A stretch of DNA of 64,000 nt from Dehalococcoidia bacterium (GTDB lineage Bacteria > Chloroflexota > Dehalococcoidia > Bin125), in assembly GCA_022828105.1 (NCBI GenBank), contig JAJEJC010000001.1, positions 5,918-69,917 on the forward strand, read 5' to 3'. How positions within the stretch are numbered: position 1 is the first letter of the stretch; each line of letters begins with the position of its first letter. The position numbers were made by a program, and so were the translations under genes. This document shows positions 1-54,963 of the stretch, in pieces. The notes beneath the pieces were generated by a model. The model was given only the letters and a program-made list of their open reading frames with translations, was not told where the DNA came from and made no database searches.

Positions 1-96
1 CGCCTGCGCGTGCCGCTCGTCGTTGACCGCGCCACCGTCCCGCTCGGCCAACCAGGGAACCGGCGCCGCTGCGGGCGCCGCAGATGTCGTCACCAT
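1..96 (-). CDS. partial CDS (first 32 codons; gene continues past window start), unknown product
   Basis: ATG at 94-96 on minus strand with GAGGG about 5 nt upstream. Open to the window edge and divergent from the SDR gene. Too short to assign. Confidence 0.35.
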   Translation of the reverse strand, partial: MVTTSAAPAAAPVPWLAERDGGAVNDERHAQA

Positions 97-231
97 CAAA
101 CCCTCTGTCCAGGAGAACCGTCCGTCCAACCGCCACTACCGCTTTAGCAAGGATTTCCCCGTTCCGTCAAGTCGGCGGCGGCCTAGTATCCTGCCTACTG
201 AACCGTTTGCTGCCAGAAAGGACCCAGGGTT

Positions 232-1179
232 ATGGGCGATCGACTTGAGGGACGCGTCGCGATCGTGACCGGCGCGGGACGCGGAATCGGCCGCGGACAC
301 GCGCTGCTGCTGGCCTCGGAGGGCGCGCGCGTCGTGGTCAACGACTACGGCGGCTCGCAGGGCGGCGAACTGGACGGCGAGGCGGGTCCGGCCGACGAGG
401 TCGTGAACGCGATCAAGGACGCCGGCGGCGACGCCGTGGCCAACTACGACTCCGTAGCCGACATGGACGCCGGCGAGCGCATGGTCCAGCAGGCGTTGGA
501 CGCCTTCGGCCGGCTCGACATCCTGATCAACAACGCGGGCATCCTGCGCGACCGGATGGTCTTCAACATGTCGGAAGAGGAGTGGGATGTCGTCGTCGAC
601 GTGCATCTGAAGGGTCACTTCACGGTGACCAAGTTCGCCTCCCAGGTCTACCGCCAGCAGCGCTCGGGCCGGATCGTCAACACGTCCTCCGAGTCCGGGC
701 TGGGCAACATGGGACAGGCCAACTACGCCGCCGCCAAGGAGGGCATCGTCGGGCTGACCCGCACGCTGGCCCGCGACCTGGGCCGCTACGGCGTCACCGC
801 CAACGCGATCCGGCCCCGGGCCGGCACGCGGCTGACCCTGACCGAGGAATTGGCCGAGGCCCAGCGCCGCGCGCGCGAGGCGGGCCTGGCCGCCGGCGAC
901 GCGGGCGATATCGACTTCGGCGCCGACCGCGAGGCGATGATGGCGCCCGAGAACGTCTCGCCCTTCACCGTCTGGCTCTGCACCGACGCAGCCGCCAACA
1001 TCAACGGGCGCGACTTCCTTGTCTGGGGCAACGAAGTGGGCATGTACTCGCTGCCCACGGTCGAGGCGGCGGTCTTCGCTTCCGGCACCGGCTTCACGCT
1101 GGACGAACTCGACCGCGTCGCCGCCCAGTCCTACCTCGGCTCGCAGAAGAATCCCTGGCCCGCACAGGCCCCGCGTTAG
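232..1179 (+). CDS. short-chain dehydrogenase/reductase (SDR) family oxidoreductase
   Basis: TGAGRGIG dinucleotide-binding motif, NNAG, catalytic YAAAK (YxxxK). High GC3 315-aa ORF. Confidence 0.9.
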   Translation: MGDRLEGRVAIVTGAGRGIGRGHALLLASEGARVVVNDYGGSQGGELDGEAGPADEVVNAIKDAGGDAVANYDSVADMDAGERMVQQALDAFGRLDILINNAGILRDRMVFNMSEEEWDVVVDVHLKGHFTVTKFASQVYRQQRSGRIVNTSSESGLGNMGQANYAAAKEGIVGLTRTLARDLGRYGVTANAIRPRAGTRLTLTEELAEAQRRAREAGLAAGDAGDIDFGADREAMMAPENVSPFTVWLCTDAAANINGRDFLVWGNEVGMYSLPTVEAAVFASGTGFTLDELDRVAAQSYLGSQKNPWPAQAPR

Positions 1180-1227
1180 AGGCGTTCCCACTCTCCCCGC
1201 CCCCCACGATCCGGAAGGAATCCAGAT

Positions 1228-1923
1228 ATGGCGATCCTCGCCCACGAACACATCGAATTCGCCGCCAACGGCGGCAGCGCCTCGGGCTACCTGGCCCGTC
1301 CCGTCGAGGGCGGACCCTATCCGGGCGTCGTCGTGATCCAGGAGTGGTGGGGGCTGAATCCCAACATCTGCGACATCGCCAACCGGATCGCGGCCGAGGG
1401 TTATGTCGCGCTCGCGCCCGACCTCTTCCACGGCTCGGTGACGGCCGAGCCGGACGAGGCGCAGAAGCTGATGATGTCGCTGCAGGAGCCCAACGCGCTG
1501 GTCGACATGTCCGGCGCGGTCGCCGCCTTGCAGGCGCGCGACGAGGTCCGCGCCGATCGGATCGGCGTGACCGGGTTCTGCCTCGGCGGCGGCATGTCGC
1601 TGCTGCTGGCGATGAACAACCCGGCCGTGACCGCGGCCGCGCCCTTCTACGGCGTGCCCGGCGCGGGCATGGGCGACGCGGGCCAGATCCAGGGCGCAGT
1701 GATGGGCTTCTACGCCGGACACGACGACTGGATCACGCCCGAGGTCGTGTCGGGCATTCAGTCGGCGCTCGACGGCGCCGGGGTGCGCAACGAGATCCAC
1801 ATGTACCCGGACTCGCACCACGGCTTCTTCAACGACACCAGCCCCGACGTGCACGATCCCGAGGCCGCCGCCGACGCCTGGACGAGGCTCAAGGCCTTCT
1901 TCGCCGCCGAGCTGCAGGCGTAA
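1228..1923 (+). CDS. dienelactone hydrolase family protein
   Basis: GVVVIQEWWGLN, Cys nucleophile elbow GFCLGGG, C-terminal H (YPDSHHGF), consistent with the DLH alpha/beta-hydrolase layout. Confidence 0.85.
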   Translation: MAILAHEHIEFAANGGSASGYLARPVEGGPYPGVVVIQEWWGLNPNICDIANRIAAEGYVALAPDLFHGSVTAEPDEAQKLMMSLQEPNALVDMSGAVAALQARDEVRADRIGVTGFCLGGGMSLLLAMNNPAVTAAAPFYGVPGAGMGDAGQIQGAVMGFYAGHDDWITPEVVSGIQSALDGAGVRNEIHMYPDSHHGFFNDTSPDVHDPEAAADAWTRLKAFFAAELQA

Positions 1924-1924
1924 G
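1902..1924. repeat. 23-bp direct repeat copy 1 (CGCCGCCGAGCTGCAGGCGTAAG), last 6 codons plus stop of the hydrolase gene
   Basis: Identical 23-mer read at 3264-3286. Confidence 0.9.
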
Positions 1925-1986
1925 GACCTCAGCGCCAGCCTCGATCCCCAACGGTTATAGACGCGAGCTGCTGAAGACGAGGCATC

Positions 1987-3036
1987 GTGATTGACACTAC
2001 GAACCACAGCCGGGCAAGCGCCGCGCTACTGATCTATAAGACCGCAACGCGACGATTCATCGCTCGTGCGCTGAAGACTCAAAATGGTGGCACTGGCGAT
2101 TGGTTTGCCGATCTCGTGCTTCCGAGCCTTTCTGGACCCCCAGCAGAGCATTTGAAGCAGCGGGTAGAAGAGGCTACCGAAAGTGGTGTCATCGTCAGCC
2201 GAGGGGGTCAAGACGACGACGGTCCGGAGCGCTTCCTCGAAGAAGCACACTTCCCACACATCGTGAAGGAAAACTGGGGCGCATTTCGTTACTGGCTGAA
2301 AGATCGCAACACAGTCCTGAAGCGACTTCGGCAGATCAAGGGCTACCGGAACGACGTAGTGGCACACAGCTACCAGCCTGTGTCGGAAGACCAAGTGACC
2401 GACATCATTCAGGCCTGTCAAGCTGTCGTTGAGCTGTTTGATTCCTCTGCATCCGATCAACTCGGAGAACTGCTGATGACCCCGGAGGTCCTACAAGAGT
2501 CGTCTGACTCCGTTTCAGAAGTTGTCCTGAGCAGTGCACAGCCGGAGACGCTAGATAGAGGCGCTGACTTGCCGAAGGCAGCAATTGACGCAGGCGCGCC
2601 ATCTGGCTGCCCACCGAGCGACGAAGCCAGGGCATCCGGTTCGACTGAAGGCGGAGGTGTTCCGAGGAGCGAAGAAGAAGGTGCGTGGCAAGGTGTGCTG
2701 AAGTTTGAACGAGAGCGACGCCGGCGTGCCGCCCGTCTTGACAGACTGATTCGACAATTCGTGCAGGCAGGTGAGGCGCAGTACCAGATTGAAGAACTCA
2801 AGGGCACGCTCGAAGAGTTGGGAACCGAGTCAGAACAAGACCTTGACGATTCGTGGAGTGAACTGCACTCGCTACGCTGGCTGACCATCCTACCCGAGTT
2901 GGTTGCACAGGTCATCGAAGAATCGGGCGGCTTCGATACGGTGGCCAATAGCCGCGATGGCGAGGTTGGGTTCTATGCAGAGGGCTCGAGTAAGTCCGTG
3001 GACTTGAAGATCATCCTCGAAGTCCGGGACCGATAA
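1987..3036 (+). CDS. Swt1-like HEPN domain protein (putative RNase effector) with acidic/coiled C-terminal half
   Basis: Rx4-6H motif in KGYRNDVVAH preceded by NWGAFRYWLKDRN context typical of Swt1-type HEPN. GTG start. AT-richer codon usage than neighbours. Confidence 0.65.
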   Translation: MIDTTNHSRASAALLIYKTATRRFIARALKTQNGGTGDWFADLVLPSLSGPPAEHLKQRVEEATESGVIVSRGGQDDDGPERFLEEAHFPHIVKENWGAFRYWLKDRNTVLKRLRQIKGYRNDVVAHSYQPVSEDQVTDIIQACQAVVELFDSSASDQLGELLMTPEVLQESSDSVSEVVLSSAQPETLDRGADLPKAAIDAGAPSGCPPSDEARASGSTEGGGVPRSEEEGAWQGVLKFERERRRRAARLDRLIRQFVQAGEAQYQIEELKGTLEELGTESEQDLDDSWSELHSLRWLTILPELVAQVIEESGGFDTVANSRDGEVGFYAEGSSKSVDLKIILEVRDR

Positions 3037-3263
3037 CACTTCGAACTCTGCCCTCCTAGAGTTTCTACAGGCCTCTCCCTTCGGCGTGGATCGTCAACCA
3101 GGGTCTCCGACTGGGGCTGCCTGACGACCTGCTCGAATAGGCCGTGGCGATCAGATGCTCCCGCCCTTCGACCGTCGCACCCGACACGTCGCGACCTACT
3201 GGAGGAATGGAGGAACTGACACGATCGCCGAACACTGAGTCGTCTCAGCCGACCGACCGCCGC

Positions 3264-3286
3264 CGCCGCCGAGCTGCAGGCGTAAG
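3264..3286. repeat. 23-bp direct repeat copy 2
   Basis: Identical to 1902-1924. Would encode AAELQA-stop in one frame. Confidence 0.9.
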
Positions 3287-3316
3287 TCCTCGATCTTCGC
3301 CGGACGGGCACGAGCG

Positions 3317-3340
3317 ACGCCCCCTCGGTCGAGGGGGCGT
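3317..3340 (+). terminator. GC-rich hairpin, probable intrinsic terminator
   Basis: ACGCCCCCTC-GGTC-GAGGGGGCGT followed by TTTCGTGTG. Lies between convergent genes. Confidence 0.5.
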
Positions 3341-3368
3341 TTCGTGTGAGCGTCCGCTGAGTCGGGCC

Positions 3369-3701
3369 CTAGAGCTCCAGCATGCCGGTTTCGCCCTCGT
3401 CGGCTTCGTTTTCGGACTCCTTGTCCGCGCCGAGGCCGACGCCGATGTAGACGAAGCCGCCGGCGGCGAGGCCGATGAACAGGCCCGCGCCGATGATGAT
3501 CCAGAGCAGCCAGGCGTCAAAGCCGCCGTCGGCCGAGGAGAGGTGCTGATTACCCGCGCCGAGGTTGATCAAAATCGCGTGGACCGCGATGGCGAGGATG
3601 TTGCCGACGATCAGGCCGGGCGCCAGCAGCGCCAACTGGATTGGGATCGGCGCGTCTTTGAGCCACTGCGGCATCATGAAGGAGGGAACCAGGGGTGGCA
3701 T
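3369..3701 (-). CDS. small integral membrane protein (about 3 TM), unknown function
   Basis: Internal ATG at 3699-3701 preceded by GAAGGGAAG. Hydrophobic segments LALLAPGLIVGNILAIAV and LLWIIIGAGLFIGLAAGGFVYIGV. The upstream extension in the track looks non-coding. Confidence 0.55.
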   Translation of the reverse strand: MPPLVPSFMMPQWLKDAPIPIQLALLAPGLIVGNILAIAVHAILINLGAGNQHLSSADGGFDAWLLWIIIGAGLFIGLAAGGFVYIGVGLGADKESENEADEGETGMLEL

Positions 3702-3845
3702 CGCAACTTCCCTTCGCTCACTGGGGCGGCGACGGTTTGAACGGCTTGTCCAAGTATCGCCCGAGTCGCCCATTCCGTCTAGGCGCCTGATCGAATGGAT
3801 ACTGTCCAATGCCCCCATAGCGCAATCGCGGATACGATAACGCGT

Positions 3846-5783
3846 ATGTCAACGAGACTCTCGCGCGGTCGTTGGACCGCCTTGCGCCGCCGCCGCCTCT
3901 CACGACGCACGCTGCTTCGCGCCACCGCACGCGCCGGGGTCGGAGCAGCGGGACTGGCGCTGGTCGGTTGCTCGGATGACGAGGAGCCGGCGCCCGAGCA
4001 GCAGGCGCAGCCGCTCCAGGATGCGGAACAGGACGCGCCCCAGCCTCAGCAGCAAGCGGCGCAGCAGTCGGCCCAGCAATCCGCCCAGCAATCGGGCTCG
4101 GCGCCGGACGGCGAGCAGGGCAATCGGCCGCCGCCCAGCGGTCCTGCGCGCGGCGGGATCATCCGCGCCTGGCTGCCGGTCGAGCGGCACGATCGCTGGG
4201 ACCCGCACCGTTCCCGCTTCCGCTACACGCAGGCAATGCACAGCCTGATGTACAACCGCTTGATCCGACCGGCGTCCGTATCGACCGGCGAACTCGAGGC
4301 CGACCTCTGCGCGCTGCCGGAGACGCCCGACGAGACGACCTACATCTTCACGGTCGATCCGGCAGCGGTCTTCTGGGACAACGAGCCGGCCAACGGGCGC
4401 GCGGTCACGGCCGAGGATGTCCGCTGGAACATCGAGCGCCAGCAGTCCGCGCTCGACGCCGACGGATTGCCCGATCCGCACTTCTTCCGCCGCGCCGGCT
4501 ACGCACGCACCGCCGCCGCCGAGGTCAGCTCCGAGGGCTCGATCCGCCTGACCACCGCCGAACCCGACGCCGCCTACCTCGGATCGGTGCACGCGTCGCC
4601 ATTCGCCTGGATCACGAGTCCCGAGGCGGCGGAACAGTTCGGCGACGCCTGGCGCGACGATCCGTCCGACGTGTTTCTCAACAGCGGCAGTGGCCCCTAC
4701 ACGCCGCTGCTCTACAACGGCGTCGAACTGACCCTGGCGCGATCCAGCAACTGGTGGCGGGGCGACTCCGCCTGGGCGGACGGCGTGACGTTCACGTCCG
4801 GCGATCCCAACGGCATCGCCGGTCTCTACGACACATCGGCCGTGGATCGCGCCGATTTCCCGCTGACCAACGAGACCGTCGAAGCGCTGCGCGAGCGGCA
4901 TCCGGAGCACCCGGCGGTCGAGCTGCCGCTCGCGGCGGCGGTCGAACTGCTCGCGCCGCTCTCGGACGAAGTCGGCTCGCCGCTCGGCGACCCCCGCATC
5001 GTCCGTGCGATTGGCCTCGCCGTCGACCGGCAGCAACTGCTGCAGCGGCTCTACGACGGACACGGCCGCGCGTCGGGTCCACTGCCCTGGTTCCTCGAAG
5101 GCTGGACGTTGAGCGAACGATTGCTGTCCGCGCTGCCTGGATACCGCGGCGATCGCGACGCAGACCTCGCCGAAGTCGCTGCGCTGGTCTCAAGCGCCGG
5201 CGGTGCGACCGGCGTGCCGATTCCGTTGGTCGTGGCCGACCTGTTCGAGGGCTTCTTTCCCGGCTCAGGCGAAGCGGCGCGCGGCATGATCGCCGAGTCC
5301 AGCGGGCTCGACGTGGCGCTCGAGTTTCGTCCCTTCGCCGAGGCGATCGACCAGATGCGCGCCGGCGAGCGATTCTGTTTCCTCGGCTGGGGCGCGGCGC
5401 CGCAGCAGGCCGATCCGACCGATATCTGGCTCGACACGCTGCACTCGCAGGGCGCGCGCCGCTGGAGCGGCGGGGCGAGTCCCGAGCTCGACGCGCTGAT
5501 CGAGCAGATGCGGACCACGTTCAATCTCGGCGCACGCCAGGACCTCGGTCACCAGGTGCAGGAAATGCTGCTGCGCGGCGAAGCCGTCCAGTGGCAGATT
5601 CCGTTGATCAACGGCATCCAACTCGGCCTGCACCAGCCCTGGCTGCATCCCGACCCGCGCCTGTTCGAGTACGCCTGGTCGACCGACCGCGTGAGCACAA
5701 GCTGGCTGGACACCGGCCACGAGTCCTATCCGACCGACCGAGCTCTGCCGGAGCCGGAGGCGGAGGACGACGCGGGCGGCTAG
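3846..5783 (+). CDS. ABC transporter substrate-binding lipoprotein, family 5 (peptide/nickel type), Tat signal
   Basis: RRRRLSRRTLL twin-arginine motif plus LALVGCS lipobox, then a Q/A/E-rich linker. Size and C-terminal pattern fit SBP_bac_5. ATG at 3846. Confidence 0.8.
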   Translation: MSTRLSRGRWTALRRRRLSRRTLLRATARAGVGAAGLALVGCSDDEEPAPEQQAQPLQDAEQDAPQPQQQAAQQSAQQSAQQSGSAPDGEQGNRPPPSGPARGGIIRAWLPVERHDRWDPHRSRFRYTQAMHSLMYNRLIRPASVSTGELEADLCALPETPDETTYIFTVDPAAVFWDNEPANGRAVTAEDVRWNIERQQSALDADGLPDPHFFRRAGYARTAAAEVSSEGSIRLTTAEPDAAYLGSVHASPFAWITSPEAAEQFGDAWRDDPSDVFLNSGSGPYTPLLYNGVELTLARSSNWWRGDSAWADGVTFTSGDPNGIAGLYDTSAVDRADFPLTNETVEALRERHPEHPAVELPLAAAVELLAPLSDEVGSPLGDPRIVRAIGLAVDRQQLLQRLYDGHGRASGPLPWFLEGWTLSERLLSALPGYRGDRDADLAEVAALVSSAGGATGVPIPLVVADLFEGFFPGSGEAARGMIAESSGLDVALEFRPFAEAIDQMRAGERFCFLGWGAAPQQADPTDIWLDTLHSQGARRWSGGASPELDALIEQMRTTFNLGARQDLGHQVQEMLLRGEAVQWQIPLINGIQLGLHQPWLHPDPRLFEYAWSTDRVSTSWLDTGHESYPTDRALPEPEAEDDAGG

Positions 5784-5784
5784 A

Positions 5785-6192
5785 TCAGGCCCAGCGGCGT
5801 TGGTGTTCCCGTTCGAACTCGAGGATGCGGCGGTAGACGCGCACCATCTCGCGATCGCGCGCCAGCGGTTCCTGCGGCGGCTTAATCACCGCGCCGCCCA
5901 GCGCCTCGACGATCTCGCGGTGGTCGTCGATGATGAAGTCGGGCACGATGTCGGTGAACAGGTACAGGCGCTGGCGGTACTGGAAGATCGGCTTGCCCAT
6001 GATCCCGGCGAGCAGCGGCCAGAGGTCGTGCTTGTCGGCGACCTCGCGGCGCGCGCCGTAACCGGACCACATGTAGACGTGGTGTCCGCGCTCCTGCAGC
6101 CGCTCCAGCACCTCGCGGGCGTAGGGTCGCAGGTGCAGGTTCCAGGAGACGAGACAGCCGTCGACGTCGAAGAAGATGTTGAGCGGGCGCAC
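5785..6192 (-). CDS. HAD-superfamily phosphatase-like protein (small)
   Basis: Motif I FFDVDGCL (DxDx), later IIDDH acidic motif. 135 aa. Confidence 0.6.
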   Translation of the reverse strand: MRPLNIFFDVDGCLVSWNLHLRPYAREVLERLQERGHHVYMWSGYGARREVADKHDLWPLLAGIMGKPIFQYRQRLYLFTDIVPDFIIDDHREIVEALGGAVIKPPQEPLARDREMVRVYRRILEFEREHQRRWA

Positions 6193-6335
6193 GAACGTTA
6201 GCCTAGCGGCACATGTCGCATGCAGCCCGGACCCTGCAGTCGTGGTGCCGCCACCTGAACGAGGCCGACCCCGGCCGCCACTTCCGGATGAAGAGCGGGC
6301 GGGAGTGCTGGCGCTGCGCCTGCCGCAACCGGGGC

Positions 6336-6527
6336 ATGCTGCGTCGGTCGCTGCTGACCTCGGCGGTGGTGGGGACGATCCTGGTCGCGATCAACCAGGG
6401 CACGGTGATCGTCGGCGGCGATGGGACATCGGAGTTGGCCTGGAAGATCCCCTTGACCTACTGCGTCCCGTTCCTGGTGGCGAGTTGGGGCGCGCTGGGG
6501 AATGCATATGCGCGGGGTGGGTCCTGA
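6336..6527 (+). CDS. NrtS-family putative nitrate/nitrite transporter-like small membrane protein
   Basis: LRRSLLTSAVVGTILVAINQG ... KIPLTYCVPFLVASWGAL resembles the NrtS two-TM pattern. Alternative starts at 6213 and 6288 cannot be excluded. Confidence 0.55.
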   Translation: MLRRSLLTSAVVGTILVAINQGTVIVGGDGTSELAWKIPLTYCVPFLVASWGALGNAYARGGS

Positions 6528-6559
6528 GTGTCGAGGTACGCTCTCCCGAAGTGGGAGGG

Positions 6560-7450
6560 ATGCCTGTGTCAGTCAGACTTGTGTGCTGGAACATTGCCAA
6601 GCGGATTCAGACGTGGCATGAACTCGTTGCCATGGAGGGCGTCGATGTCGCGCTGTTGCAGGAAGCGGGGACGGTTCCGCCAGAGGTCGCGAGTCGTGTG
6701 ACGCCCGGTCCGGATGCGCACTGGGACTCGCATTTGTGGAACGCGCGCTGGTGGGACGAACAGCGATTCCCTCACCTGCTTGAGCGTTGGCCGAAGGTGG
6801 TCAAGCTGTCGGACCTCGTCGACATTGAGTGGTTCAAGCAGGTCAGCCCGATCAGCCTTGTCGCTCCCGATGAGATTGCCGTGAGTGGCATCGGCACCAT
6901 CGCCGCTGCACGAGTGACTCCTCAGGACTCAGAGACGGAGCCATTCATCGTCATCTCGATGTACGCACGCTGGATGAGTCCGCACCCATCAACGGGAAGC
7001 AAGTGGTCAGTCGGCTACTCGGACGGTTCAGCGCATCGGATCATCTCCGACCTCTCAGCCTTCATCGGCAACGCGGACCCCGCCACACATCGAATCCTCG
7101 CTGCCGGAGACCTCAACACGGTCTTCGGCAGCGAACCGAACGACCCACAAGCGCTCGCGGCTCGAGACCAAACCATCTTCGACCGGATGGAGGCGTTGGG
7201 CCTGGAGCTGCTGGGACCGCGTTCTCCCGGCGGCCGTCAAGCATCCCCAACTCCGGAGGGGCTGCCGGCAGACACGCGTAACGTACCGACGTTCAAATCA
7301 AGCCGTCAGACACCGGAGACTGCGCAGAGCCAACTCGACTACGTGTTCGCGTCGAGAGGCTTCCACGAGCGGATCAAGGTGCGAGCGCTGAACTCTCCCG
7401 AGGAGTGGGGCGCGAGCGACCACTGCCGCCTGCTGATTGAGATCGACTGA
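6560..7450 (+). CDS. endonuclease/exonuclease/phosphatase (EEP) family protein
   Basis: ATG at 6560 behind GGGAGG. N-terminal VCWNI ... LLQEA and C-terminal SDHCRLL are typical EEP catalytic motifs. Lower GC than the flanks. Confidence 0.75.
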   Translation: MPVSVRLVCWNIAKRIQTWHELVAMEGVDVALLQEAGTVPPEVASRVTPGPDAHWDSHLWNARWWDEQRFPHLLERWPKVVKLSDLVDIEWFKQVSPISLVAPDEIAVSGIGTIAAARVTPQDSETEPFIVISMYARWMSPHPSTGSKWSVGYSDGSAHRIISDLSAFIGNADPATHRILAAGDLNTVFGSEPNDPQALAARDQTIFDRMEALGLELLGPRSPGGRQASPTPEGLPADTRNVPTFKSSRQTPETAQSQLDYVFASRGFHERIKVRALNSPEEWGASDHCRLLIEID

Positions 7451-8712: not shown

Positions 8713-11100
8713 ATGCCTGACAGAGCGGGACCACTTGGCGACGTACGGGTGATCGACCTGACCGACGACCGCGGGGTCTATGCGGGGAAGCTGCTGGGCG
8801 ACCTGGGCGCGGAGGTGATCCGGGTCGAACCTGCGGCGGGCGACCCGCTGCGAAGGCGTGCGCCGTTGCATGAGAACGGGTCGTCGCTGTGGCACGCGTT
8901 CTTCGCCAGTTCGCGGCAGTTCACGAGCGGCGATTGGGACGCGGCTGCGGAACTGGCGCAGTCGGCTGACATCGTCTTGGACTGCGAGCGGCTGGCGGAT
9001 CCTGAGGCGCTGCTGGCCGCGAATACGGGGCTGGTGATCGTTGACGTGACCTCGTTCGGCCGCTCGGGTCCGTGGCGCGACTACCTGGCGCCGGGGCTCG
9101 TGGCCGAGGCGCTGGGCGGGGTCGCCGCGACGTCGGGCGACGCCGACACGCCGCCGCTCAAGCTGTACGGCGACCAGTACGCCTTTGTGGCAGGGGTGTA
9201 CGCGGCGATCGGGGCGTTGGCCGCGCTGCGACACGCTCGCGAGACCGGAGCGGGCCAGATCGTGCGGCTGAGCGTGCACGAGGCGCTCTGCACGATCCTC
9301 GAGCACGTCTTGATGTGGGCCTGGTACCACGAGCACGTGCCCTTCGCCGACGGTCCCGTGCTGCCGCGCCAGGGGTCGCTGCACTGGTCCAGCGCATACG
9401 TCGTAATGCAGGCCGTGGGCGGTTCGATCATGATCACGCCGACGCCCGACTTCTCGCGCCAGGTCGCCTGGCTGGTCGAGGAGGGCACCGGGCTGGAGCT
9501 GCTGGACGAGCGCTTCAGCGATCCGGCCAACGTGGCCGAGATGATCATGCTGACGATGCAGACCCTGCGCGAGTGGGTTGCGGGCAAGGAAGTCGAGCTG
9601 TTCTTCCACGAGGCGCAGGCGCGGCACCATCCCTACGGCTGGGTGATGACGACGCCCGAGGTGGCGGAGAATCCGCAGCTTGAGGCGCGCGACTGGTGGA
9701 CCGATTATCCGGCCGGCGGGGCGACTGCAATCGGACCAGGGGCGCCGTATCACTTCTCGGAGACTTCGTGGAGGATCGGCGGAGCGGGGAGCCCCCCTCT
9801 GTCACAACGTGACATCTCCCCCCGCTTCGCGGGGGGAGAGACAGACTCCCATCCGATCTCCCCCCGCTCTGCGGGGGGAGATGCCGAAGGCAGAGGGGGG
9901 CGTCGCACCACAGGTCCCCTCGAAGGCATCCGGGTGCTCGACTTCACGCACGTGCTGGCCGGGCCGTTTGCGACGCGGGTGCTGGGCGACATGGGCGCGG
10001 ACGTGGTCAAGGTGATGTCCGCAACGCGCGTCTCACTTGCCGGCGGTCTGGACAGTCCGTATCACACGATGTGGAATCGCAACAAGCGGGTCTTCCAGCT
10101 CGACCTCAGCCGTACCGAGGCACGCGAGATCGCCCGCAAGCTGGCGGTCGAGGCCGATGTCGTGATCGACAACTTCTCGGTCGGCGTGCTGGATCGCTGG
10201 GAACTGGGTTACGACGCCGTCAGCCCCGACAATCCCGGCGTGGTCTATATCGGCATGTCGGGCATGGGCGTGTCGGGGCCGTGGTCGAACTACGTGACCT
10301 ACGCGCCGACCGTGCATGCGCTGGCCGGGCTGACCTACCTGACCGGCGTGCCGGGTCGCAACGACATCGGGATCGGCTTCAGCTACAACGATCACATGGC
10401 CGGACTGCACGGCGCGGTCGCGATCCTGGCGGCGCTCGAGGCTCGGCGCACGACGGGGCGGGGCCAGCAGATCGATATGAGCCAGTTCGAGGTCGGGGTC
10501 TCGTTCTCCGGCCCGGCGCTGCTGGACTTCTTCGCCAACGGGGTCGAGGCGCAGCCGGTCGGCAACGACCCGCCCTGGGAGGACTGGACGCCGCACGCGA
10601 TTTATCCCTGCCGGGGGAACGACGAATGGTGCGCCATCGCGGTCGTCAACGATGATCAATGGCGGGCGTTATGTCGGCTCATGGAAGCTCACGCCTGGCT
10701 CGACGACGCCTCGTTGGAGACCGCGGCTGGGCGTCGCGCGCGGCAGGCGGAGATCGACGTCCGGATCGGCGAGTGGACACGCACCCAGGATCGATACGAA
10801 CTGATGGATCGCTGCCAGGCGGCCGGCGTGCCGGCCGGCGTCGTGCAGACGGGATTCGATCTGACCGAGCGCGATCCGCAGCTCGCCCACTCGAGGATGT
10901 TCTTCGACTTCGACGACCCGCATCCCGACATTGGTCCGCTCAAGGGCGATCGGCTGCCGCTGCAGTTCGAGCGCACTCCCGCCACCGTCTACAATCGCTC
11001 GGAGGTCTTCGGCGAGTCCAACCTGTCGGTGGCGTCGGACTGGCTGGGAATCGCGGCGCTGGAGGTGGAGCGCTTGGAGTCGGAAGGGGTGATTGAGTAA
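8713..11100 (+). CDS. tandem fusion of two family III (CaiB/BaiF) CoA-transferase units joined by a repeat-derived linker
   Basis: Unit 1 starts GPLGDVRVIDLTDDRGVYAGKLLGDLGAEVIRVEP. Unit 2 starts GPLEGIRVLDFTHVLAGPFATRVLGDMGADVVKV. No stop between them in the track ORF. The linker SPPLSQRDISPRFAGGETDSHPISPRSAGGDAEGRGG is encoded by palindromic repeats. Confidence 0.8.
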   Translation: MPDRAGPLGDVRVIDLTDDRGVYAGKLLGDLGAEVIRVEPAAGDPLRRRAPLHENGSSLWHAFFASSRQFTSGDWDAAAELAQSADIVLDCERLADPEALLAANTGLVIVDVTSFGRSGPWRDYLAPGLVAEALGGVAATSGDADTPPLKLYGDQYAFVAGVYAAIGALAALRHARETGAGQIVRLSVHEALCTILEHVLMWAWYHEHVPFADGPVLPRQGSLHWSSAYVVMQAVGGSIMITPTPDFSRQVAWLVEEGTGLELLDERFSDPANVAEMIMLTMQTLREWVAGKEVELFFHEAQARHHPYGWVMTTPEVAENPQLEARDWWTDYPAGGATAIGPGAPYHFSETSWRIGGAGSPPLSQRDISPRFAGGETDSHPISPRSAGGDAEGRGGRRTTGPLEGIRVLDFTHVLAGPFATRVLGDMGADVVKVMSATRVSLAGGLDSPYHTMWNRNKRVFQLDLSRTEAREIARKLAVEADVVIDNFSVGVLDRWELGYDAVSPDNPGVVYIGMSGMGVSGPWSNYVTYAPTVHALAGLTYLTGVPGRNDIGIGFSYNDHMAGLHGAVAILAALEARRTTGRGQQIDMSQFEVGVSFSGPALLDFFANGVEAQPVGNDPPWEDWTPHAIYPCRGNDEWCAIAVVNDDQWRALCRLMEAHAWLDDASLETAAGRRARQAEIDVRIGEWTRTQDRYELMDRCQAAGVPAGVVQTGFDLTERDPQLAHSRMFFDFDDPHPDIGPLKGDRLPLQFERTPATVYNRSEVFGESNLSVASDWLGIAALEVERLESEGVIE
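9792..9902. repeat. MITE/REP-like palindromic element (two TCTCCCCCCGC-loop-GCGGGGGGAGA hairpins; 10-bp terminal inverted repeats)
   Basis: Hairpins at 9815-9839 and 9857-9881. CCCCCCTCTG (9792-9801) is the reverse complement of CAGAGGGGGG (9891-9900). The tail GATGCCGAAGGCAGAGGGGGGCG recurs at 39337-39359. Confidence 0.8.
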
Positions 11101-11115
11101 TGCGCTGCGCGATCC

Positions 11116-11997
11116 TTACGGCTCGTCCAGGTCAATGGCGATCGCAAACTCTGGCCAGCGGCTTCTGAAGTTCCGGCACTCCAGAGTCTCACGGTCGATT
11201 CTGCAGTGTCGAATCATCGTGATGATGCAGCTACTTTTCAGGTAGATGCCGCCGTTGTCGTCCAGCGTATGGAGACACTCGGAGAGCGCTGCCGGAGGAC
11301 CGCGCCACTCGTAGATGCCTTCCCAGTCAGGCTCCACCTGGCCTTCGATCGTCTCGAACGTCGCGGTGCTCTCCATGTAGCCTTCGGCTCCGTAGAGGAC
11401 CGTGAACAGGATGTCCGAGGAGTACACCCAGTTGTGGTGGCCGATGTCGTTCGGGAAGAACCGTCGTTGGGGATACAGCGGGTCACTCAACGCCGGTCCG
11501 TCCTCCGAGTATGGCAAGCCGTAGCGAAGCGCAAACTCTACTGCGTTCCTTGTGGGATGAACTCTGGCATATATGTGGACGATGGTTGTCTCGAACTGCT
11601 GCTGCAGTTCTGCTTCCAACTTAGCGTTGGTATCGGTGTAGGGAAGGGACTGGCACGGGAATCCTCGAGATCTGAGCCAGTCGTGATGCGGCGTGCGCAG
11701 CGGGAAGTATCGCTGTTCGGGCAACAGCAGCGTCCCTGGCCTGCCGCTCCGATCGAGCAACTGGTATCCAAACTCGACTCGATCGTCCTCAGTCAGGCGC
11801 GCCGCGATCCTGACCGCGAAGTCCACCGACTGGACTTCCGGCCGAGCGTCGTCAAGGACCACCCCAGGATCGGAATCCAATGAGTCACCGTCATCGGCAA
11901 TGGTGATTAGGGCAGGAGCGGCCGCAATCGACAGGACCAGAGCGGCCAAGACTGCGAGCATACGCTGGGGCAACGAACTGTGGCTCAGGCTAGACAT
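11116..11997 (-). CDS. secreted hypothetical protein with internal domain duplication and Cys-rich C-terminus
   Basis: Signal-like MLAVLAALVLSIAAAPA. Repeated blocks RVEFGYQLL...RYFPLRTPHHDW and AVEFALRYGL...RRFFPNDIGHHNW. Lower GC. Confidence 0.6.
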   Translation of the reverse strand: MSSLSHSSLPQRMLAVLAALVLSIAAAPALITIADDGDSLDSDPGVVLDDARPEVQSVDFAVRIAARLTEDDRVEFGYQLLDRSGRPGTLLLPEQRYFPLRTPHHDWLRSRGFPCQSLPYTDTNAKLEAELQQQFETTIVHIYARVHPTRNAVEFALRYGLPYSEDGPALSDPLYPQRRFFPNDIGHHNWVYSSDILFTVLYGAEGYMESTATFETIEGQVEPDWEGIYEWRGPPAALSECLHTLDDNGGIYLKSSCIITMIRHCRIDRETLECRNFRSRWPEFAIAIDLDEP

Positions 11998-16721: not shown

Positions 16722-16836
16722 GAGGCTCAGCGTCGCACCATTCTCCGGCCTGAGCAAACGGGTGAGATACGATCTGTTCCAGTTCCCGCTTCACGCGGGA
16801 ACCTGCTCGGGCCCGTCTCCCTGGGGATGTCCACTC

Positions 16837-39243: not shown

Positions 39244-39301
39244 CCAGTTCCTGCTTCACGCAGGAACCCGCCCCCAGTTCCTGCTTCACGCAGGAACCCG
39301 C
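39244..39301. repeat. 2 tandem copies (period 30) of CCAGTTCCTGCTTCACGCAGGAACCCGC, each an 8-bp-stem hairpin with loop TTCAC
   Basis: Hairpins GTTCCTGC-TTCAC-GCAGGAAC at 39247-39267 and 39277-39297, immediately after the Anbu stop. Confidence 0.85.
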
Positions 39302-39311
39302 TCCGTTCCCC

Positions 39312-39359
39312 TCTCCCCCCGCGCCTCGCGGGGGGAGATGCCGCAGGCAGAGGGGGGCG
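39312..39359. repeat. REP-like hairpin of the same family as 9792-9902
   Basis: TCTCCCCCCGC-GCCTC-GCGGGGGGAGA followed by TGCCGCAGGCAGAGGGGGGCG. One mismatch in the tail relative to 9882-9902. Confidence 0.8.
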
Positions 39360-39384
39360 CCCAACCTGTGCGACAATCCAACCC

Positions 39385-42189: not shown

Positions 42190-42264
42190 GCTTCCAGGCG
42201 GATCGCCACCTGTGAAGGCCATGGCTTGATTCGCCTATGAGTAACTGACCTGAGGAGAGGGATC

Positions 42265-53739: not shown

Positions 53740-54963
53740 ATGCCGCGCGTGATGCTCCTGATACCCACCGCTTCCTATCGCGCGCCCGACTTCATGTCGG
53801 CAGCGGACAAGCTCGGTCTCGACGTGGTCGTTGCCTCGGACATCGATCAGCCGCTGGCCGACATGTATCCGGGCCGCTGGCTCACGCTGCCGTACCACGA
53901 CATCGCCCGCGGCGCGCAGGCGGTCGCCCGATACGCCGACCGCTTTCCCCTCGACGCGGTCGTGGCCGTCGACGATCCCGGCGCCATCCTGGCCGCCCAC
54001 GCCAGCGCCGAGCTGCAACTCACCGGCAACTCACCGGAGTCGGTGATTGGCACGCGAGACAAGTCAGAGTTACGCCGCGCGCTGGAGTCGCACGGCGTGC
54101 GCTCGCCGAGTTGGCAGGTCTGCCGCTTCGATGACGAGCCGCCGCTCGACGGATTGGAGTTTCCGGTCGTGGTCAAGCCGTTGGGCCTGAACGGCTCGCG
54201 CGGCGTAATCCGGGCCAACGACGAAGCGTCGCTGCGACGGGCGATCGAGCGGCTGCGCCTGCTGTTGAGCACGAAGTCTGCCGCCGAGGAGTGCGGCGAA
54301 CTGGCCGATCGCTACTTGATCGAGGGCTACATCCCGGGCTCGGAAGTGGCGCTCGAGGGGCTGCTGCGCGATGGCGAGCTGCACACCCTGGCAGTGTTCG
54401 ACAAACCCAACCCGCTGCACGGACCGTTCTTCGAAGAAACGATCTACGTCACGCCGTCGCGGCTTCCGGAAACGCAGATCGCAGAAGTCGTGGCGACCGC
54501 GCGGATGTCGGCGCAGGCGCTGGGCCTGCACGACGGACCGCTGCACGCGGAGTTGCGGCTCAACGACGAAGGCGCCTGGCCGGTCGATGTCGCTGCTCGC
54601 ACGATCGGCGGGCTGTGCGCGCGGACGCTGCGCTTCGGGGCGGGAATGTCGCTGGAGGAAATCGTGTTGCGGCACGCGATCAATGCGCCGCTCGCCTCGC
54701 TGAATCGCGAGTCAAGGGCGGCCGGCGTGATGATGATGCCGATCGTCGGCCGGGGACGCATCCGCGCGATCCGAGGACTGGACGAAGCCGCAGCGGTTCC
54801 CTTGATCGAGGAGATCGAAATGGAGGCCCGGGTCGGCGACATGCTGGTCCCGCTGCCCGAAGGCGCCGACTATCCCGGCTTCATCTTCGCCCGAGGCGAA
54901 GACCCCGCTGAGGTGGAGTCGGCGCTGCGAGAGGCATGGTCGAAGATCGAGTTTGTGCTGTGA
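53740..54963 (+). CDS. ATP-grasp domain protein (carboxylate-amine ligase-like, substrate unknown)
   Basis: Pre-ATP-grasp plus ATP-grasp layout ([29 protein letters not shown]). 407 aa. Confidence 0.7.

What the first reader, a model, noticed from the sequence alone, without database searches (positions are those of the whole stretch)
1902..3286. Low-GC 1.36-kb islet with a lone Swt1-like HEPN gene, inserted at the 3' end of the dienelactone hydrolase gene between perfect 23-bp direct repeats
CGCCGCCGAGCTGCAGGCGTAAG occurs at 1902-1924, where it is the last 6 codons plus stop of the hydrolase gene (AAELQA-stop). It occurs again, identical, at 3264-3286. About 30 nt after the second copy lies a GC-rich hairpin with a T-tract (3317-3345) that looks like the hydrolase gene's original terminator. 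The roughly 1.34 kb between the copies is visibly AT-richer than the flanks. It encodes one protein (1987-3036) with an Rx4-6H HEPN motif (KGYRNDVVAH) and leaves about 230 nt with no convincing ORF. Duplication of a gene's 3' end is the signature of site-specific integration, yet no integrase, transposase or antitoxin partner is present. This is therefore either a decayed element or a cargo-only islet mobilised in trans. HEPN RNases are typical abortive-infection or toxin effectors.
Basis: partly seen in the sequence, partly recalled or inferred. Interest (0 to 1): 0.7.

Follow-up and report, generated by a model that had tools for sequence, protein, structure and literature searches.

The report
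Swappable HEPN toxin-like gene cassette
A single RNase-like (HEPN) gene was inserted after a hydrolase gene in an uncultured Dehalococcoidia genome; it is one allele of a very variable, horizontally exchanged gene that always sits in this same slot, and the 23-bp repeat is a leftover scar of its insertion, not a classical attachment site.

Summary
The 23-mer occurs exactly twice, the 1.36 kb between the copies has lower GC, it holds one 349-aa ORF, and the hairpin after copy 2 is the hydrolase's own terminator, as empty sites in relatives show.

The protein is a real but divergent Swt1/Abi2-type HEPN protein (hhalign 99.9% against Pfam-certified members; R121 and H127 invariant).

The mobility model needs revising.
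- All known homologues (9 alleles, 39-96% aa identity) lie in this one slot between two convergent core genes, one per genome, scattered among about 45 empty relatives.
- Genomes with 95-98% identical flanks carry alleles only about 55% identical.
- The window's islet is 97% identical to one in a genome whose flanks are only 76-91% identical (dS 0.06 against 0.32).
- That sister copy keeps a 61-nt duplicate of the hydrolase 3' end. The window's 23-mer is the same duplicate after a 33-nt deletion.
- Other alleles have different junctions and no repeat.
- There is no integrase, inverted repeat, partner gene or known RNA.

Best reading: an integrase-free, homology-exchanged cassette in a variable hotspot. 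It probably encodes a one-gene abortive-infection or toxin-like RNase with a conserved effector domain and a hypervariable, swapped C-terminal domain. The function is inferred, not shown.

The parts
1228..1923 (+). Dienelactone hydrolase family gene (231 aa). It is the conserved left-flanking core gene. Its last 61 nt plus the base after the stop (1864-1924) are the segment that was duplicated.
   Evidence: PF01738, E 9.5e-55. Syntenic in 50 related Dehalococcoidia loci.
1902..1924 (+). Left copy of the 23-bp direct repeat: the last 6 codons, the stop codon and a G.
1925..1986 (+). Left end of the islet and 5' leader of the HEPN gene (62 nt). No promoter-like or terminator-like site was predicted, and a GAGG lies a few nt before the GTG start. 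The gene is probably read through from the hydrolase gene (inferred).
   Evidence: 97% identical in L069. Not conserved across the other alleles.
1987..3036 (+). HEPN gene, 349 aa. Residues 1-165 form the Swt1/Abi2-type HEPN domain (1987-2481), residues 166-230 a low-confidence linker, and residues 231-349 a C-terminal helical hairpin plus two beta-strands (2677-3033).
   Evidence: ORF. Only 8 close homologues among 5.8 billion sequences. The family profile reaches PF18731-certified proteins at E 1.4e-26. hhalign probability 99.9%, E 7e-35. AF2 model of the N-domain: pLDDT 88, pTM 0.85, all helical. dN/dS 0.34 against the L069 copy.
2347..2367 (+). Codons R121-N-D-V-V-A-H127, the Rx5H catalytic motif of the HEPN domain.
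   Evidence: R121 and H127 are invariant in a 19-sequence alignment that includes Pfam-certified Swt1-like HEPN proteins. The motif aligns to the RNxWAH consensus.
3037..3263 (+). Non-coding tail of the islet (227 nt). The first ~70 nt looked similar by eye to the 3' region of the L070 allele; the rest is shared only with L069.
   Evidence: No ORF of note, no Rfam family, fold z-score -0.43, no terminal inverted repeats, no BLAST match to any other locus. 9 differences from L069 across the tail.
3264..3286 (+). Right copy of the repeat. It is what remains of a 61-nt duplicate of the hydrolase 3' end; 33 nt were deleted at 3263/3264 relative to L069.
   Evidence: L069 2125-2185 is 61/61 identical to window 1864-1924.
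3287..3368 (.). Original spacer downstream of the hydrolase gene, with the hairpin terminator shared by the two convergent genes (stem 3321-3337, wider palindrome 3301-3356).
   Evidence: The same hairpin follows the hydrolase stop in empty sites L004, L028, L005, L019 and L027.
3369..3818 (-). Small hydrophobic-protein gene (149-aa ORF, called as 110 aa in public annotation; no Pfam hit). It is the conserved right-flanking core gene and is present in both empty and occupied loci, so it is not a specific partner of the HEPN gene.

Best explanation
The islet is one allele of a clade-restricted, single-slot accessory gene cassette.

Where it sits. Its slot is the short spacer between two convergent core genes, the hydrolase gene and a small hydrophobic-protein gene, in a group of uncultured Dehalococcoidia. 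In most genomes the slot is empty. In some it holds a HEPN gene, and in more distant relatives it holds other cargo.

How it moves (inferred). Alleles are old and very divergent, and they are exchanged among lineages by recombination that uses the conserved gene ends, without a recombinase of their own. In the lineage of the window's allele, one insertion duplicated the last 61 nt of the hydrolase gene. That could have been a single crossover of a circular or ends-in DNA carrying hydrolase 3'-end homology, or a one-sided illegitimate join. The copy to the right of the islet later lost 33 nt in the window, which left the perfect 23-mer.

What it encodes (shown to inferred). The product has a conserved N-terminal Swt1/Abi2-type HEPN domain with an intact Rx5H site. 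By inference it is a metal-independent RNase that acts as a dimer. Its C-terminal domain is hypervariable and swapped between alleles. I infer this domain to be the regulatory part, an auto-inhibitor and/or trigger sensor, because no antitoxin gene or RNA accompanies the gene in any of the 9 alleles. The most likely role is a one-gene abortive-infection or toxin-like defence effector that is kept silent until triggered.

Shown: the insertion, horizontal exchange, the nature of the scar, HEPN homology and domain mosaicism. Inferred: the recombination route, RNase activity, the regulatory role of the C-domain and the defence role.
For: **Slot and empty sites**
- 50 syntenic loci were found. Most have only 75-260 nt between the two stop codons, with the same terminator hairpin.

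**Single slot**
- The window protein, P0001-P0003, P0005, P0006, P0008 and the L015 allele all lie between the hydrolase gene and the small hydrophobic-protein gene.
- Only one copy is present in the complete 3.28-Mb genome OY760135.1.
- The family was not found in IMG/VR or the JGI metagenomes.

**Patchy distribution**
- Occupied loci fall in at least 6 separate places on the hydrolase tree, next to empty sisters.

**Incongruence between flanks and cassette**
- L074 and L076 have flanks 97.8% identical over 4.8 kb on each side, right up to both stop codons, yet their cassettes are at most 68% identical.
- L070 and L015 have hydrolase genes 97.8% identical and HEPN genes 54% identical.
- Window against L069: hydrolase gene 90.8%, right flank 76-86%, islet 97%.
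- Mismatch counts for window against L069 are 64/678 in the left flank, 41/1381 in the islet and 59/414 in the right flank (Fisher p 1.7e-9 and 1.6e-15).
- dS is 0.061 for the HEPN gene and 0.32 for the hydrolase gene.
- L069's core flanks are L003-like (94.7% and 98.3%), while its whole spacer is window-like.

**The scar**
- L069's right-hand copy is 61/61 identical to window 1864-1924 and differs at 6 sites from L069's own gene end.
- The window lacks 33 nt of that copy.
- Extra hydrolase-end copies occur only in HEPN-occupied loci: window, L069 and L017.

**No mobility machinery**
- No recombinase within about 10 kb, no terminal inverted repeats and no tRNA nearby.

**Protein**
- HEPN homology.
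- All alleles match the PADLOC candidate-defence model PDC-M34B, at E 2.6e-8 to 2.5e-3.
- The ORF is intact in all 9 alleles, and dN/dS is 0.34.
- Domains are mosaic. Window against L070 is 56% identical in the N-domain but 81% in the C-domain. Window against L075 is 66% and 31%. There are at least 5 C-domain types only 20-30% identical to each other.

**No partner**
- The spacers flanking the gene are as short as 40-108 nt (L015) and are not conserved across alleles.
- No Rfam hit.

**Other cargo in the same slot**
- More distant relatives carry other cargo here, including tandem pairs of a weakly PIN-like gene and a 159-aa gene.
Against: - No experiment or expression data exist. RNase activity, toxicity and a defence role are all inferred from homology and population pattern.
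- The window protein itself does not reach any curated Pfam, NCBIfam or PADLOC threshold.
- Foldseek gave no significant structural match. HEPN proteins and PbAbiF appear only among non-significant top hits.
- The window-L069 high-identity tract ends exactly at the repeat boundaries: the last left mismatch is at 1905 and the first right mismatch at 3287. A recombinase acting at the repeat would explain this just as well or better.
- A simple single crossover into an L003-identical site does not reproduce L069's right junction, so at least one unseen intermediate lineage is needed.
- The sample is small: 9 alleles and one close pair.
- Low GC in all alleles is unexplained if the gene has long resided in high-GC genomes.
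Confidence: 0.55

Rival explanations
1. The islet is a cargo-only or decayed integrative element that inserts by site-specific recombination at an att core in the hydrolase 3' end. A tyrosine or serine recombinase encoded elsewhere moves it, and the repeats are attL and attR.
For: - Perfect repeats flank the islet and the hydrolase gene is reconstituted.
- Empty sites exist.
- The tract of high identity between the window and L069 is bounded by the repeats. The left copy in L069 is a hybrid: L003-type up to window position 1905 and window-type from position 1911 or earlier. A crossover inside a core would produce this.
- In L070 against L015 the left breakpoint also falls in the last ~15 nt of the hydrolase gene.
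Against: - No recombinase lies in the islet or within about 10 kb.
- The repeat is not a fixed core. It is 61 nt in L069 and 23 nt in the window only because of a later deletion.
- Five of the eight occupied lineages have no repeat at all, and the junctions resolved in L070 and L015 lie about 50-100 nt after the stop codon.
- L017 has its hydrolase-end copy on the opposite side of the gene.
- The tail has no arm-type repeats or special structure.
- The 23-mer is absent from all other genomes searched.
Confidence: 0.2
2. The repeat has nothing to do with how the islet moves. It is a by-product of homology-facilitated illegitimate recombination. Incoming DNA was anchored by homology on one side and joined through a GCCGCCG microhomology on the other, which trapped a fragment of the recipient's hydrolase gene end. 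All later spread was ordinary double-crossover replacement of the whole spacer.
For: - The right-hand fragment is contiguous with native downstream sequence, exactly as in an empty site.
- The junction lies in a GCCGCC-rich microhomology.
- L017 shows the mirror-image arrangement, a foreign hydrolase-end fragment to the left of the gene, as a right-anchored event would give.
- Spacer-wide replacement with breakpoints at the stop codons is seen in L074/L076 and L070/L015.
Against: - The duplicate is a perfect 61/61 copy of the window-type gene end. This requires the homologous crossover to lie at the very end of the gene, or a donor identical there.
- The step in identity between window and L069 falls exactly at the end of the right copy, from 0-1% to about 15%. 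This model does not predict that.
Confidence: 0.25
3. The HEPN gene is an old vertically inherited resident of this locus. It evolves fast and has been lost many times, and the repeat is a local duplication.
For: - All homologues share one slot and one clade.
- All have the same atypical composition.
- The neighbouring solute-binding-protein gene is also only about 69% identical between the window and L017.
Against: - Synonymous divergence of the islet is five times lower than that of the adjacent hydrolase gene in the window-L069 pair.
- Genomes with 95-98% identical flanks carry alleles only 54-56% identical.
- The N- and C-domains give conflicting relationships.
- Empty sisters such as L033 retain intact spacer sequence on both sides of the insertion point, which simple deletion does not give.
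Confidence: 0.07
4. Functional rival. The protein is not a stand-alone defence effector. It could be the toxin of a toxin-antitoxin pair whose antitoxin (protein or RNA) lies elsewhere or in the 227-nt tail, or it could be a non-catalytic RNA-binding or regulatory HEPN protein.
For: - Weak similarity to HepT toxins around the catalytic helix.
- AbiF-type HEPN toxins are neutralised by a neighbouring non-coding RNA (PMC12373285).
- The window allele has an unexplained 227-nt tail.
- Some Swt1-family HEPN domains are inactive (PMC3710099).
Against: - No nucleotidyltransferase or other second ORF is present in any allele.
- No abiF RNA (RF03085) or any other Rfam family was found.
- The tail is absent from the other alleles, and the flanking spacers are not conserved.
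- The catalytic R and H are invariant.
Confidence: 0.2

Closest known systems
Bacterial Swt1-like HEPN domains (Pfam PF18731; Ava_2192 group of the Abi2/Swt1 clade, Anantharaman et al. 2013, PMC3710099)
   Same: The N-terminal ~165 aa are homologous (profile E 1.4e-26, hhalign 99.9%). The R[ND]xx(x)AH catalytic motif is conserved, and the family has a conflict/defence context.
   Different: The described bacterial members are mostly fused to a DUF499 AAA+ ATPase or STAND/TPR modules inside R-M or BREX-like operons (PMC3710099). This one is a solo gene with an unrelated, hypervariable C-terminal coiled-coil/beta-hairpin domain. It scores below the Pfam threshold on its own.
AbiD/AbiF (Abi_2) one-gene abortive-infection HEPN proteins with the abiF RNA
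   Same: Single ~350-aa HEPN protein of low GC, in the Abi2/Swt1 branch of the superfamily. PbAbiF (8vz6) has the highest query TM-score (0.39) among the listed PDB matches, but that match is not significant.
   Different: No Abi_2 Pfam match. No abiF RNA motif (RF03085) or conserved flanking RNA. AbiF toxins are neutralised by that RNA (PMC12373285).
HepT-MntA (type VII toxin-antitoxin)
   Same: HEPN RNase toxin with weak local similarity around the Rx4-6H helix (E 0.005-0.014).
   Different: No adjacent MntA nucleotidyltransferase gene. Scores are far below the cut-offs (16.8 bits against 60). The protein is three times longer than HepT.
CapRel-SJ46-type fused toxin-antitoxin immune proteins (PMC9712102)
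   Same: An analogy of design only: one polypeptide with a conserved N-terminal toxin domain and a variable C-terminal domain, and no separate antitoxin gene.
   Different: Unrelated folds and chemistry (a RelA/SpoT-like pyrophosphokinase rather than HEPN). Auto-inhibition and trigger sensing are untested here.
Core-genome defence hotspots without identifiable mobilisation genes (E. coli hotspots, PMC10121019, which also cites two such hotspots in Pseudomonas aeruginosa)
   Same: A fixed slot between conserved core genes that is empty in most strains, holds diverse conflict-type cargo in others, and has no integrase.
   Different: The slot here is tiny (a spacer of about 80-250 nt between convergent genes) and mostly holds a series of alleles of one gene family rather than many unrelated systems. 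The host is an uncultured Dehalococcoidia clade.
Integrase-borne islands and prophages that target and reconstitute the 3' end of a gene (tRNA or tmRNA type)
   Same: The target gene's 3' end is duplicated, the gene is reconstituted, and empty sites exist.
   Different: No integrase, the repeat is not shared by other insertions in the slot, and the islet holds 1.3 kb with a single cargo gene.
PADLOC candidate system PDC-M34, component B
   Same: All alleles match the model over the N-terminal ~120 aa, at E 2.6e-8 to 2.5e-3.
   Different: PDC-M34 is a multi-gene candidate, and no component A is present here. The match covers only part of the protein. The candidate itself is uncharacterised.

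Membership tests
HEPN superfamily | Rx4-6H motif at the start of the last core helix | tested here: met
   R121-NDVVA-H127. R and H are invariant in 19 relatives and align to RNxWAH.
HEPN superfamily | All-alpha helical-bundle fold matching solved HEPN structures | tested here: inconclusive
   The AF2 model of the N-domain is all helical (pLDDT 88, pTM 0.85). Foldseek found no match with E below 1. HEPN entries (2hsb, 8vz6, 7bxo, 5yep) appear only among non-significant top hits.
HEPN superfamily | Endoribonuclease activity | not testable with these tools
   This needs biochemistry.
Swt1-like HEPN (PF18731) | Match to the Pfam model at the gathering score | tested here: not met
   The window protein has no PF18731 hit at E up to 1. 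The best allele, P0006, reaches E 4.1e-4 and 21.1 bits against a cut-off of 27.5, covering model positions 1-112 of 115.
Swt1-like HEPN (PF18731) | Homology to certified members by profile methods | tested here: met
   The family profile hits PF18731-certified proteins at E 1.4e-26 down to 1e-7. hhalign gives probability 99.9%, E 7e-35, over 161 columns.
HepT-MntA type VII toxin-antitoxin | Adjacent MntA nucleotidyltransferase antitoxin gene | tested here: not met
   No second conserved ORF in any of the occupied loci.
HepT-MntA type VII toxin-antitoxin | HepT model above the cut-off | tested here: not met
   NF047751 scores 16.8 bits against 60, and PF01934 scores 15.5 against 23.5.
AbiD/AbiF (Abi_2) with abiF RNA | Abi_2 domain match | tested here: not met
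   No Abi_2 hit for any allele at E up to 1.
AbiD/AbiF (Abi_2) with abiF RNA | Neighbouring abiF RNA motif (RF03085) | tested here: not met
   An Rfam E-value scan of 1800-3500 found only one chance-level miRNA hit. No 5' element is conserved across alleles.
Site-specific integrative element | Integrase or recombinase gene in the element | tested here: not met
   The islet has a single ORF with HEPN homology. Its neighbours are metabolic genes.
Site-specific integrative element | Direct repeats at both ends, and an empty site with a single copy | tested here: met
Site-specific integrative element | The same att core used by independent insertions | tested here: not met
   L070, L015, L074, L075 and L076 have no repeat; the resolved insertion points differ (L070, L015). 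L017 has the gene-end copy on the other side of the HEPN gene.
Site-specific integrative element | Excised circular form | not testable with these tools
   This needs read-level data or PCR.
IS, MITE or transposon | Terminal inverted repeats and a short fixed-length target duplication | tested here: not met
   No terminal inverted repeats. The duplication is 61 nt.
Integron gene cassette | An attC-type imperfect palindrome at the cassette end and an intI/attI platform | tested here: not met
   The tail does not fold better than shuffled sequence. No integrase is nearby.
Core-genome variable (defence) hotspot | A fixed slot between conserved core genes with presence/absence and content variation among relatives | tested here: met
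Core-genome variable (defence) hotspot | Cargo with demonstrated anti-phage function | not testable with these tools
   There are only homology hints: HEPN, PDC-M34B, and weakly PIN-like pairs in L041 and L044.

The most novel reading that the evidence does not exclude
The locus is a bacterial 'immune receptor allele series'. It encodes a one-protein fused toxin-sensor: a conserved HEPN RNase domain joined to interchangeable C-terminal specificity modules. Balancing selection keeps it as an ancient polymorphism at a single chromosomal slot in uncultured, largely sponge-associated Dehalococcoidia. It spreads between species as an integrase-free cassette that carries a copy of the target gene's 3' end and homes by that homology.
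Probability: 0.2. Interest if true: 0.65.

Novelty: new variant of a known kind. Interest (0 to 1): 0.45.

Why it matters
If this reading is right, the locus gives a compact natural example of three things.
- A single-gene HEPN effector whose regulation must be built into the protein. This makes a testable prediction: the isolated N-domain should be toxic and the full-length protein silent.
- Domain-level shuffling and long-lived allelic diversity at a defence-like locus in an uncultured symbiont lineage, where defence biology is known almost only from gene counts.
- Gene flow between species into a fixed slot with no mobility genes, with a readable scar that records how the DNA got in.

It also carries a practical caution. 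A perfect short repeat that duplicates a gene end is not enough to call an att site, and comparison with a sister copy changed the interpretation here.

Tried and rejected
- **Foldseek, full-length model.** The model (pLDDT 65.6) gave only noise against the PDB.
- **Foldseek, N-domain model.** No significant match against the PDB or BFVD.
- **Sequence search of the PDB with the family profile.** Only spurious helical hits.
- **Barstar.** Pfam Barstar hits appeared in 3 alleles. I considered them as a possible fused RNase inhibitor and rejected them. They are below threshold (at most 21 bits against 23.4), cover 32-36 residues and lie inside the HEPN domain.
- **Small RNA or structured element in 3037-3263.** No Rfam hit and z -0.43.
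- **Conserved 5' leader or RNA across alleles.** None.
- **Terminal inverted repeats or arm-type repeats.** None.
- **Other copies.** The 23-mer has no other copy in the window or in 185,579 genomes. The family has no relatives in JGI metagenome contigs or IMG/VR.
- **L070-L073.** These turned out to be one population and added nothing.
- **The 91-aa cluster members P0068 and P0069.** I suspected truncated pseudogenes. The locus I looked up (P0068, L080) is an alternative gene call on DNA identical to the window; P0069 was not looked up.
- **Assembly chimera as the origin of L069.** Rejected. The shared junction sequence is 19 nt. That is shorter than the assembler's k, which I recall to be 31 for Logan (my own knowledge). 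L069 also keeps 33 nt that the window lacks.
- **Simple Campbell insertion of the window's unit into an L003-identical site.** This does not reproduce L069's right junction.


Full report
**1. The observation**

The 23-mer CGCCGCCGAGCTGCAGGCGTAAG occurs at 1902-1924 and 3264-3286 and nowhere else in the window, even with 3 mismatches. No shuffle gave two matches. Copy 1 is the end (AAELQA, stop codon, then a G) of a 231-aa dienelactone hydrolase (DLH) family ORF at 1228-1923 (PF01738, E 9.5e-55). Between the copies GC falls to 0.55-0.60, against 0.65-0.77 outside.

One ORF of 349 aa (1987-3036) carries KGYRNDVVAH. The 227 nt at 3037-3263 have no convincing ORF, no Rfam match and no unusual fold. 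Thirty nt after copy 2 lies a G+C-rich hairpin with a T-tract. Identical DNA over window 1-7036 was assembled from three samples, one of them a 942-kb scaffold that appears to be the source, so the structure is not an assembly artefact.

**2. Host and empty sites**

The hydrolase protein retrieved 68 loci. About 50 are syntenic Dehalococcoidia/Chloroflexota MAGs with the gene order short-chain dehydrogenase, hydrolase, spacer, small hydrophobic-protein gene on the opposite strand, then SBP_bac_5 solute-binding protein. From my own knowledge, many of the bin names indicate marine-sponge metagenomes.

In most loci the two convergent stop codons are only 75-260 nt apart. In L004, L028, L005, L019 and L027 the hydrolase stop is followed by the same hairpin, GCCCCCTCG...CGAGGGGGCG. 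Removing one repeat unit (1362 nt) from the window leaves an 83-nt spacer.

**3. The protein**

Curated libraries give only sub-threshold hits:
- HepT, E 0.014 and 0.0048
- CARF_HEPN, E 2e-4
- PDC-M34B, E 2.7e-4

Only 8 close homologues exist among 5.8 billion clustered proteins. A profile built from them found 61 cluster representatives. Those tested carry Pfam HEPN_Swt1 above threshold at their N-termini, mostly fused to DUF499 ATPases or STAND/TPR modules. This is the bacterial Ava_2192 group of the Abi2/Swt1 clade described by Anantharaman et al. (PMC3710099).

hhalign of the family against these certified N-termini gives probability 99.9%, E 7e-35, over 161 columns, with YRNekVAH aligned to RNxWAH. 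R121 and H127 are invariant in a 19-sequence alignment. The AF2 model of residues 1-170 is confident (pLDDT 88, pTM 0.85) and all helical. Foldseek returned no significant match. A HEPN protein (2hsb), PbAbiF (8vz6, TMq 0.39) and HepT chains appear only among hits with E above 1 (two searches were also negative).

HEPN membership therefore rests on sequence profiles, and the structural test is inconclusive. The rest of the protein is a low-confidence linker (residues 166-230) followed by a helical hairpin and two beta-strands (residues 231-349), with no family assignment.

**4. Every homologue sits in the same slot**

P0001 (L069), P0002 (L070-L073), P0003 (L017), P0005 (L074), P0006 (L075), P0008 (L076) and a 34%-identical copy in L015 all lie between the hydrolase gene and the small hydrophobic-protein gene. 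The complete 3.28-Mb genome OY760135.1 has one copy. No relatives were found in IMG/VR or JGI metagenome contigs. On a hydrolase-gene tree the occupied loci are scattered in at least six places next to empty sisters.

**5. Horizontal exchange**

Pairwise comparisons are strongly incongruent.

| Pair | Flanks | HEPN cassette |
|---|---|---|
| L074 / L076 (same sample) | 97.8% over 4.8 kb on each side, up to both stop codons | at most 68% |
| L070 / L015 | hydrolase gene 97.8% | 54% |
| window / L069 | hydrolase gene 90.8%; right flank 76-86% | 97% |

L033 has nearly the same flanks as L070 and L015 but is empty.

For the window-L069 pair, mismatches are 64/678 in the left flank, 41/1381 in the islet and 59/414 in the right flank (Fisher p 1.7e-9 and 1.6e-15). 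The steps are sharp: 14 then 2 mismatches per 100 nt at the left edge, and 1 then 15 at the right edge. Synonymous divergence is 0.061 for the HEPN gene and 0.32 for the hydrolase gene.

L069's core flanks are L003-like (94.7% on the left; 98.3% from the stop of the small hydrophobic-protein gene onward). Its entire spacer is window-like. The same allele therefore sits in two species-level backgrounds.

**6. What the 23-mer is**

In L069 the copy to the right of the islet is 61 nt long (L069 2125-2185). It is 61/61 identical to window 1864-1924, the window's own hydrolase gene end. It differs at 6 positions from L069's functional gene end, which is L003-like. The window's right copy is the same fragment after a 33-nt deletion at 3263/3264 in a GCCGCC-rich stretch.

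The 23-bp repeat is therefore a truncated remnant of a 61-nt duplication of the hydrolase 3' end that travels with this allele. It is not a defined core site. Additional hydrolase-end copies were found only in HEPN-occupied loci: window, L069 and L017. In L017 the copy is a degenerate 48-nt fragment lying between the hydrolase stop and the HEPN gene, on the other side of the gene. L070, L015, L074, L075 and L076 have no repeat. In L070 and L015, compared with the empty sister L033, the insertion points lie about 100 and 50 nt after the stop, beyond a palindromic element that is also present in empty sites.

There are no terminal inverted repeats. No recombinase lies in the islet or among the neighbouring genes, which are metabolic. 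No tRNA is nearby.

**7. How it got there (inferred)**

The general pattern is a whole-spacer cassette with breakpoints at the two stop codons, old alleles, patchy presence and no mobility genes. It fits exchange by homologous recombination in the conserved gene ends, at a slot kept polymorphic for a long time.

For the window's allele the repeat-bounded tract has two candidate explanations:
- a single-crossover (Campbell or ends-in) insertion of DNA carrying hydrolase-end homology;
- a one-sided illegitimate join at GCCGCC microhomology that trapped the recipient's gene end.

A trans-acting site-specific recombinase would explain the sharp boundaries in this one pair, but not the other alleles. 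A simple insertion of the window's unit into an L003-identical site does not reproduce L069's right junction, where the terminator part is 85% window-like and not L003-like. At least one unsampled intermediate is implied. I cannot resolve these routes with the data in hand.

**8. What it probably does (inferred)**

- The gene is intact in all 9 alleles and is under purifying selection overall (dN/dS 0.34; 0.72 in the N-domain, on few substitutions).
- The domains are mosaic. Window against L070 is 56% (N-domain) and 81% (C-domain). Window against L075 is 66% and 31%. At least five C-domain types are only 20-30% identical to each other, while N-domains stay at 55-70%.
- No second ORF or conserved flanking RNA accompanies the gene. 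The spacers around it can be as short as 40-108 nt (L015) and are not conserved across alleles. The abiF RNA motif is absent.
- All alleles match the PADLOC candidate-defence model PDC-M34B.
- In more distant relatives the same slot holds other cargo, including tandem pairs of a weakly PIN-like gene (E 3.5e-4) and a 159-aa gene.

The most economical reading is a one-gene, HEPN-based abortive-infection or toxin-like effector. The conserved N-domain would be the RNase. The hypervariable C-domain would hold it in check and/or recognise a trigger. This design is analogous to fused toxin-antitoxin immune proteins such as CapRel-SJ46 (PMC9712102), and it is an analogy only. No promoter or terminator is predicted between the hydrolase gene and the HEPN gene, so read-through transcription ending at the native terminator is likely.

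**9. Comparison with known systems**

- The domain belongs with the bacterial Swt1-like HEPN proteins, but the architecture (solo gene with this C-domain) is not the described DUF499 fusion.
- It resembles AbiD/AbiF in size and single-gene layout, but fails both the Abi_2 and the abiF-RNA tests. AbiF biology is described in PMC12373285 and PMC12165695.
- It is not a HepT-MntA pair.
- As a genomic feature it resembles core-genome defence hotspots that lack identifiable mobilisation genes (PMC10121019). It resembles an integrase-borne island only superficially.

**10. Verdict**

It is a real, horizontally exchanged HEPN islet with a genuine empty site and no mobility genes. The 23-mer is a scar of a longer duplication rather than an att core. 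The low GC is a family trait rather than a sign of recent foreign origin. I rate it a new variant of a known kind (a solo HEPN conflict gene in a core-genome hotspot). It is of moderate interest mainly for its allele series, its domain swapping and its readable insertion scar. All functional statements remain inference.

Noticed in passing
L002 5697-5740, L033 5697-5740, L015 4736-4790, L070 795-850, L074 4894-4940, L075 about 2090-2130: A REP-like palindromic element (ACTCCGTCATACCCGCGCTTGCCGCGGGTATCTCGCC and variants) sits just after the hydrolase stop in both empty and occupied loci. Other empty sites (L003, L010, L027) carry different palindromic fillers. The spacer is a general sink for small hairpin elements.
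   Followed up: partly
L041 5693-8318 and L044 5706-8909 (minus strand): In more distant relatives the same slot holds two to three tandem copies of a gene pair, on the minus strand. One gene is weakly PIN-like (~145-200 aa; Pfam PIN E 3.5e-4, below threshold) and the other is a 159-aa gene with no family. This looks like arrayed toxin-antitoxin-type modules.
   Followed up: partly
L038 6366-7247; L018 5729-6423; L037 5696-6534: Other fillings of the slot: a 293-aa protein with an N-terminal HTH_38 domain (L038), two unassigned ORFs (L018), and an 837-nt high-GC repetitive stretch without clear genes (L037).
   Followed up: partly
L017 5710-5757: A degenerate 48-nt copy of the hydrolase 3' end (about 7 differences from the functional gene end over the 46 nt compared; the stop codon appears lost by a 1-nt deletion) followed by a C-rich run. 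It lies between the functional hydrolase stop and the HEPN gene, the mirror image of the window's arrangement.
   Followed up: partly
window 39385-43545: A low-GC stretch (0.57 at 42-43 kb) with a 934-aa protein that has an NPPF motif and weak type II/IIG methyltransferase and PglX/mad2-like PADLOC hits. It is followed by a 426-aa protein with no family. This may be another defence-type insertion. Palindromic repeats lie immediately upstream at 39244-39366.
   Followed up: partly
window 16779-16808, 39244-39303; 9857-9909, 39314-39366: Two families of dispersed G+C-rich palindromic (REP-like) repeats in intergenic positions.
   Followed up: no
L074 9807-10945, L075 6549-8211, L076 9967-10993: A GmrSD-type (type IV restriction) gene lies a few kb downstream of the slot in three HEPN-occupied relatives. 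In the window the gene following the conserved 135-aa HAD-like ORF on that side is an Exo_endo_phos-family gene (6176-7450) instead. This suggests a second variable spot nearby.
   Followed up: no
window 11116-11997 (-) and 54936-55460 (+): Two further ORFs (293 aa and 174 aa) lie in locally low-GC bins (0.60 and 0.59). Neither has a Pfam match.
   Followed up: partly
L080 4001-4276 (equivalent to window 2761-3036): On DNA identical to the window, one public annotation calls only a 91-aa C-terminal fragment of the HEPN gene, which creates 91-aa members in the protein cluster. This is a gene-calling difference and not a truncation.
   Followed up: yes
window 1987-3036 and all alleles: GC3 of the HEPN gene is 0.57-0.66 in every allele, against 0.85-0.94 for the adjacent hydrolase gene, although the family is known only from this high-GC clade. 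The persistent compositional gap is unexplained.
   Followed up: partly
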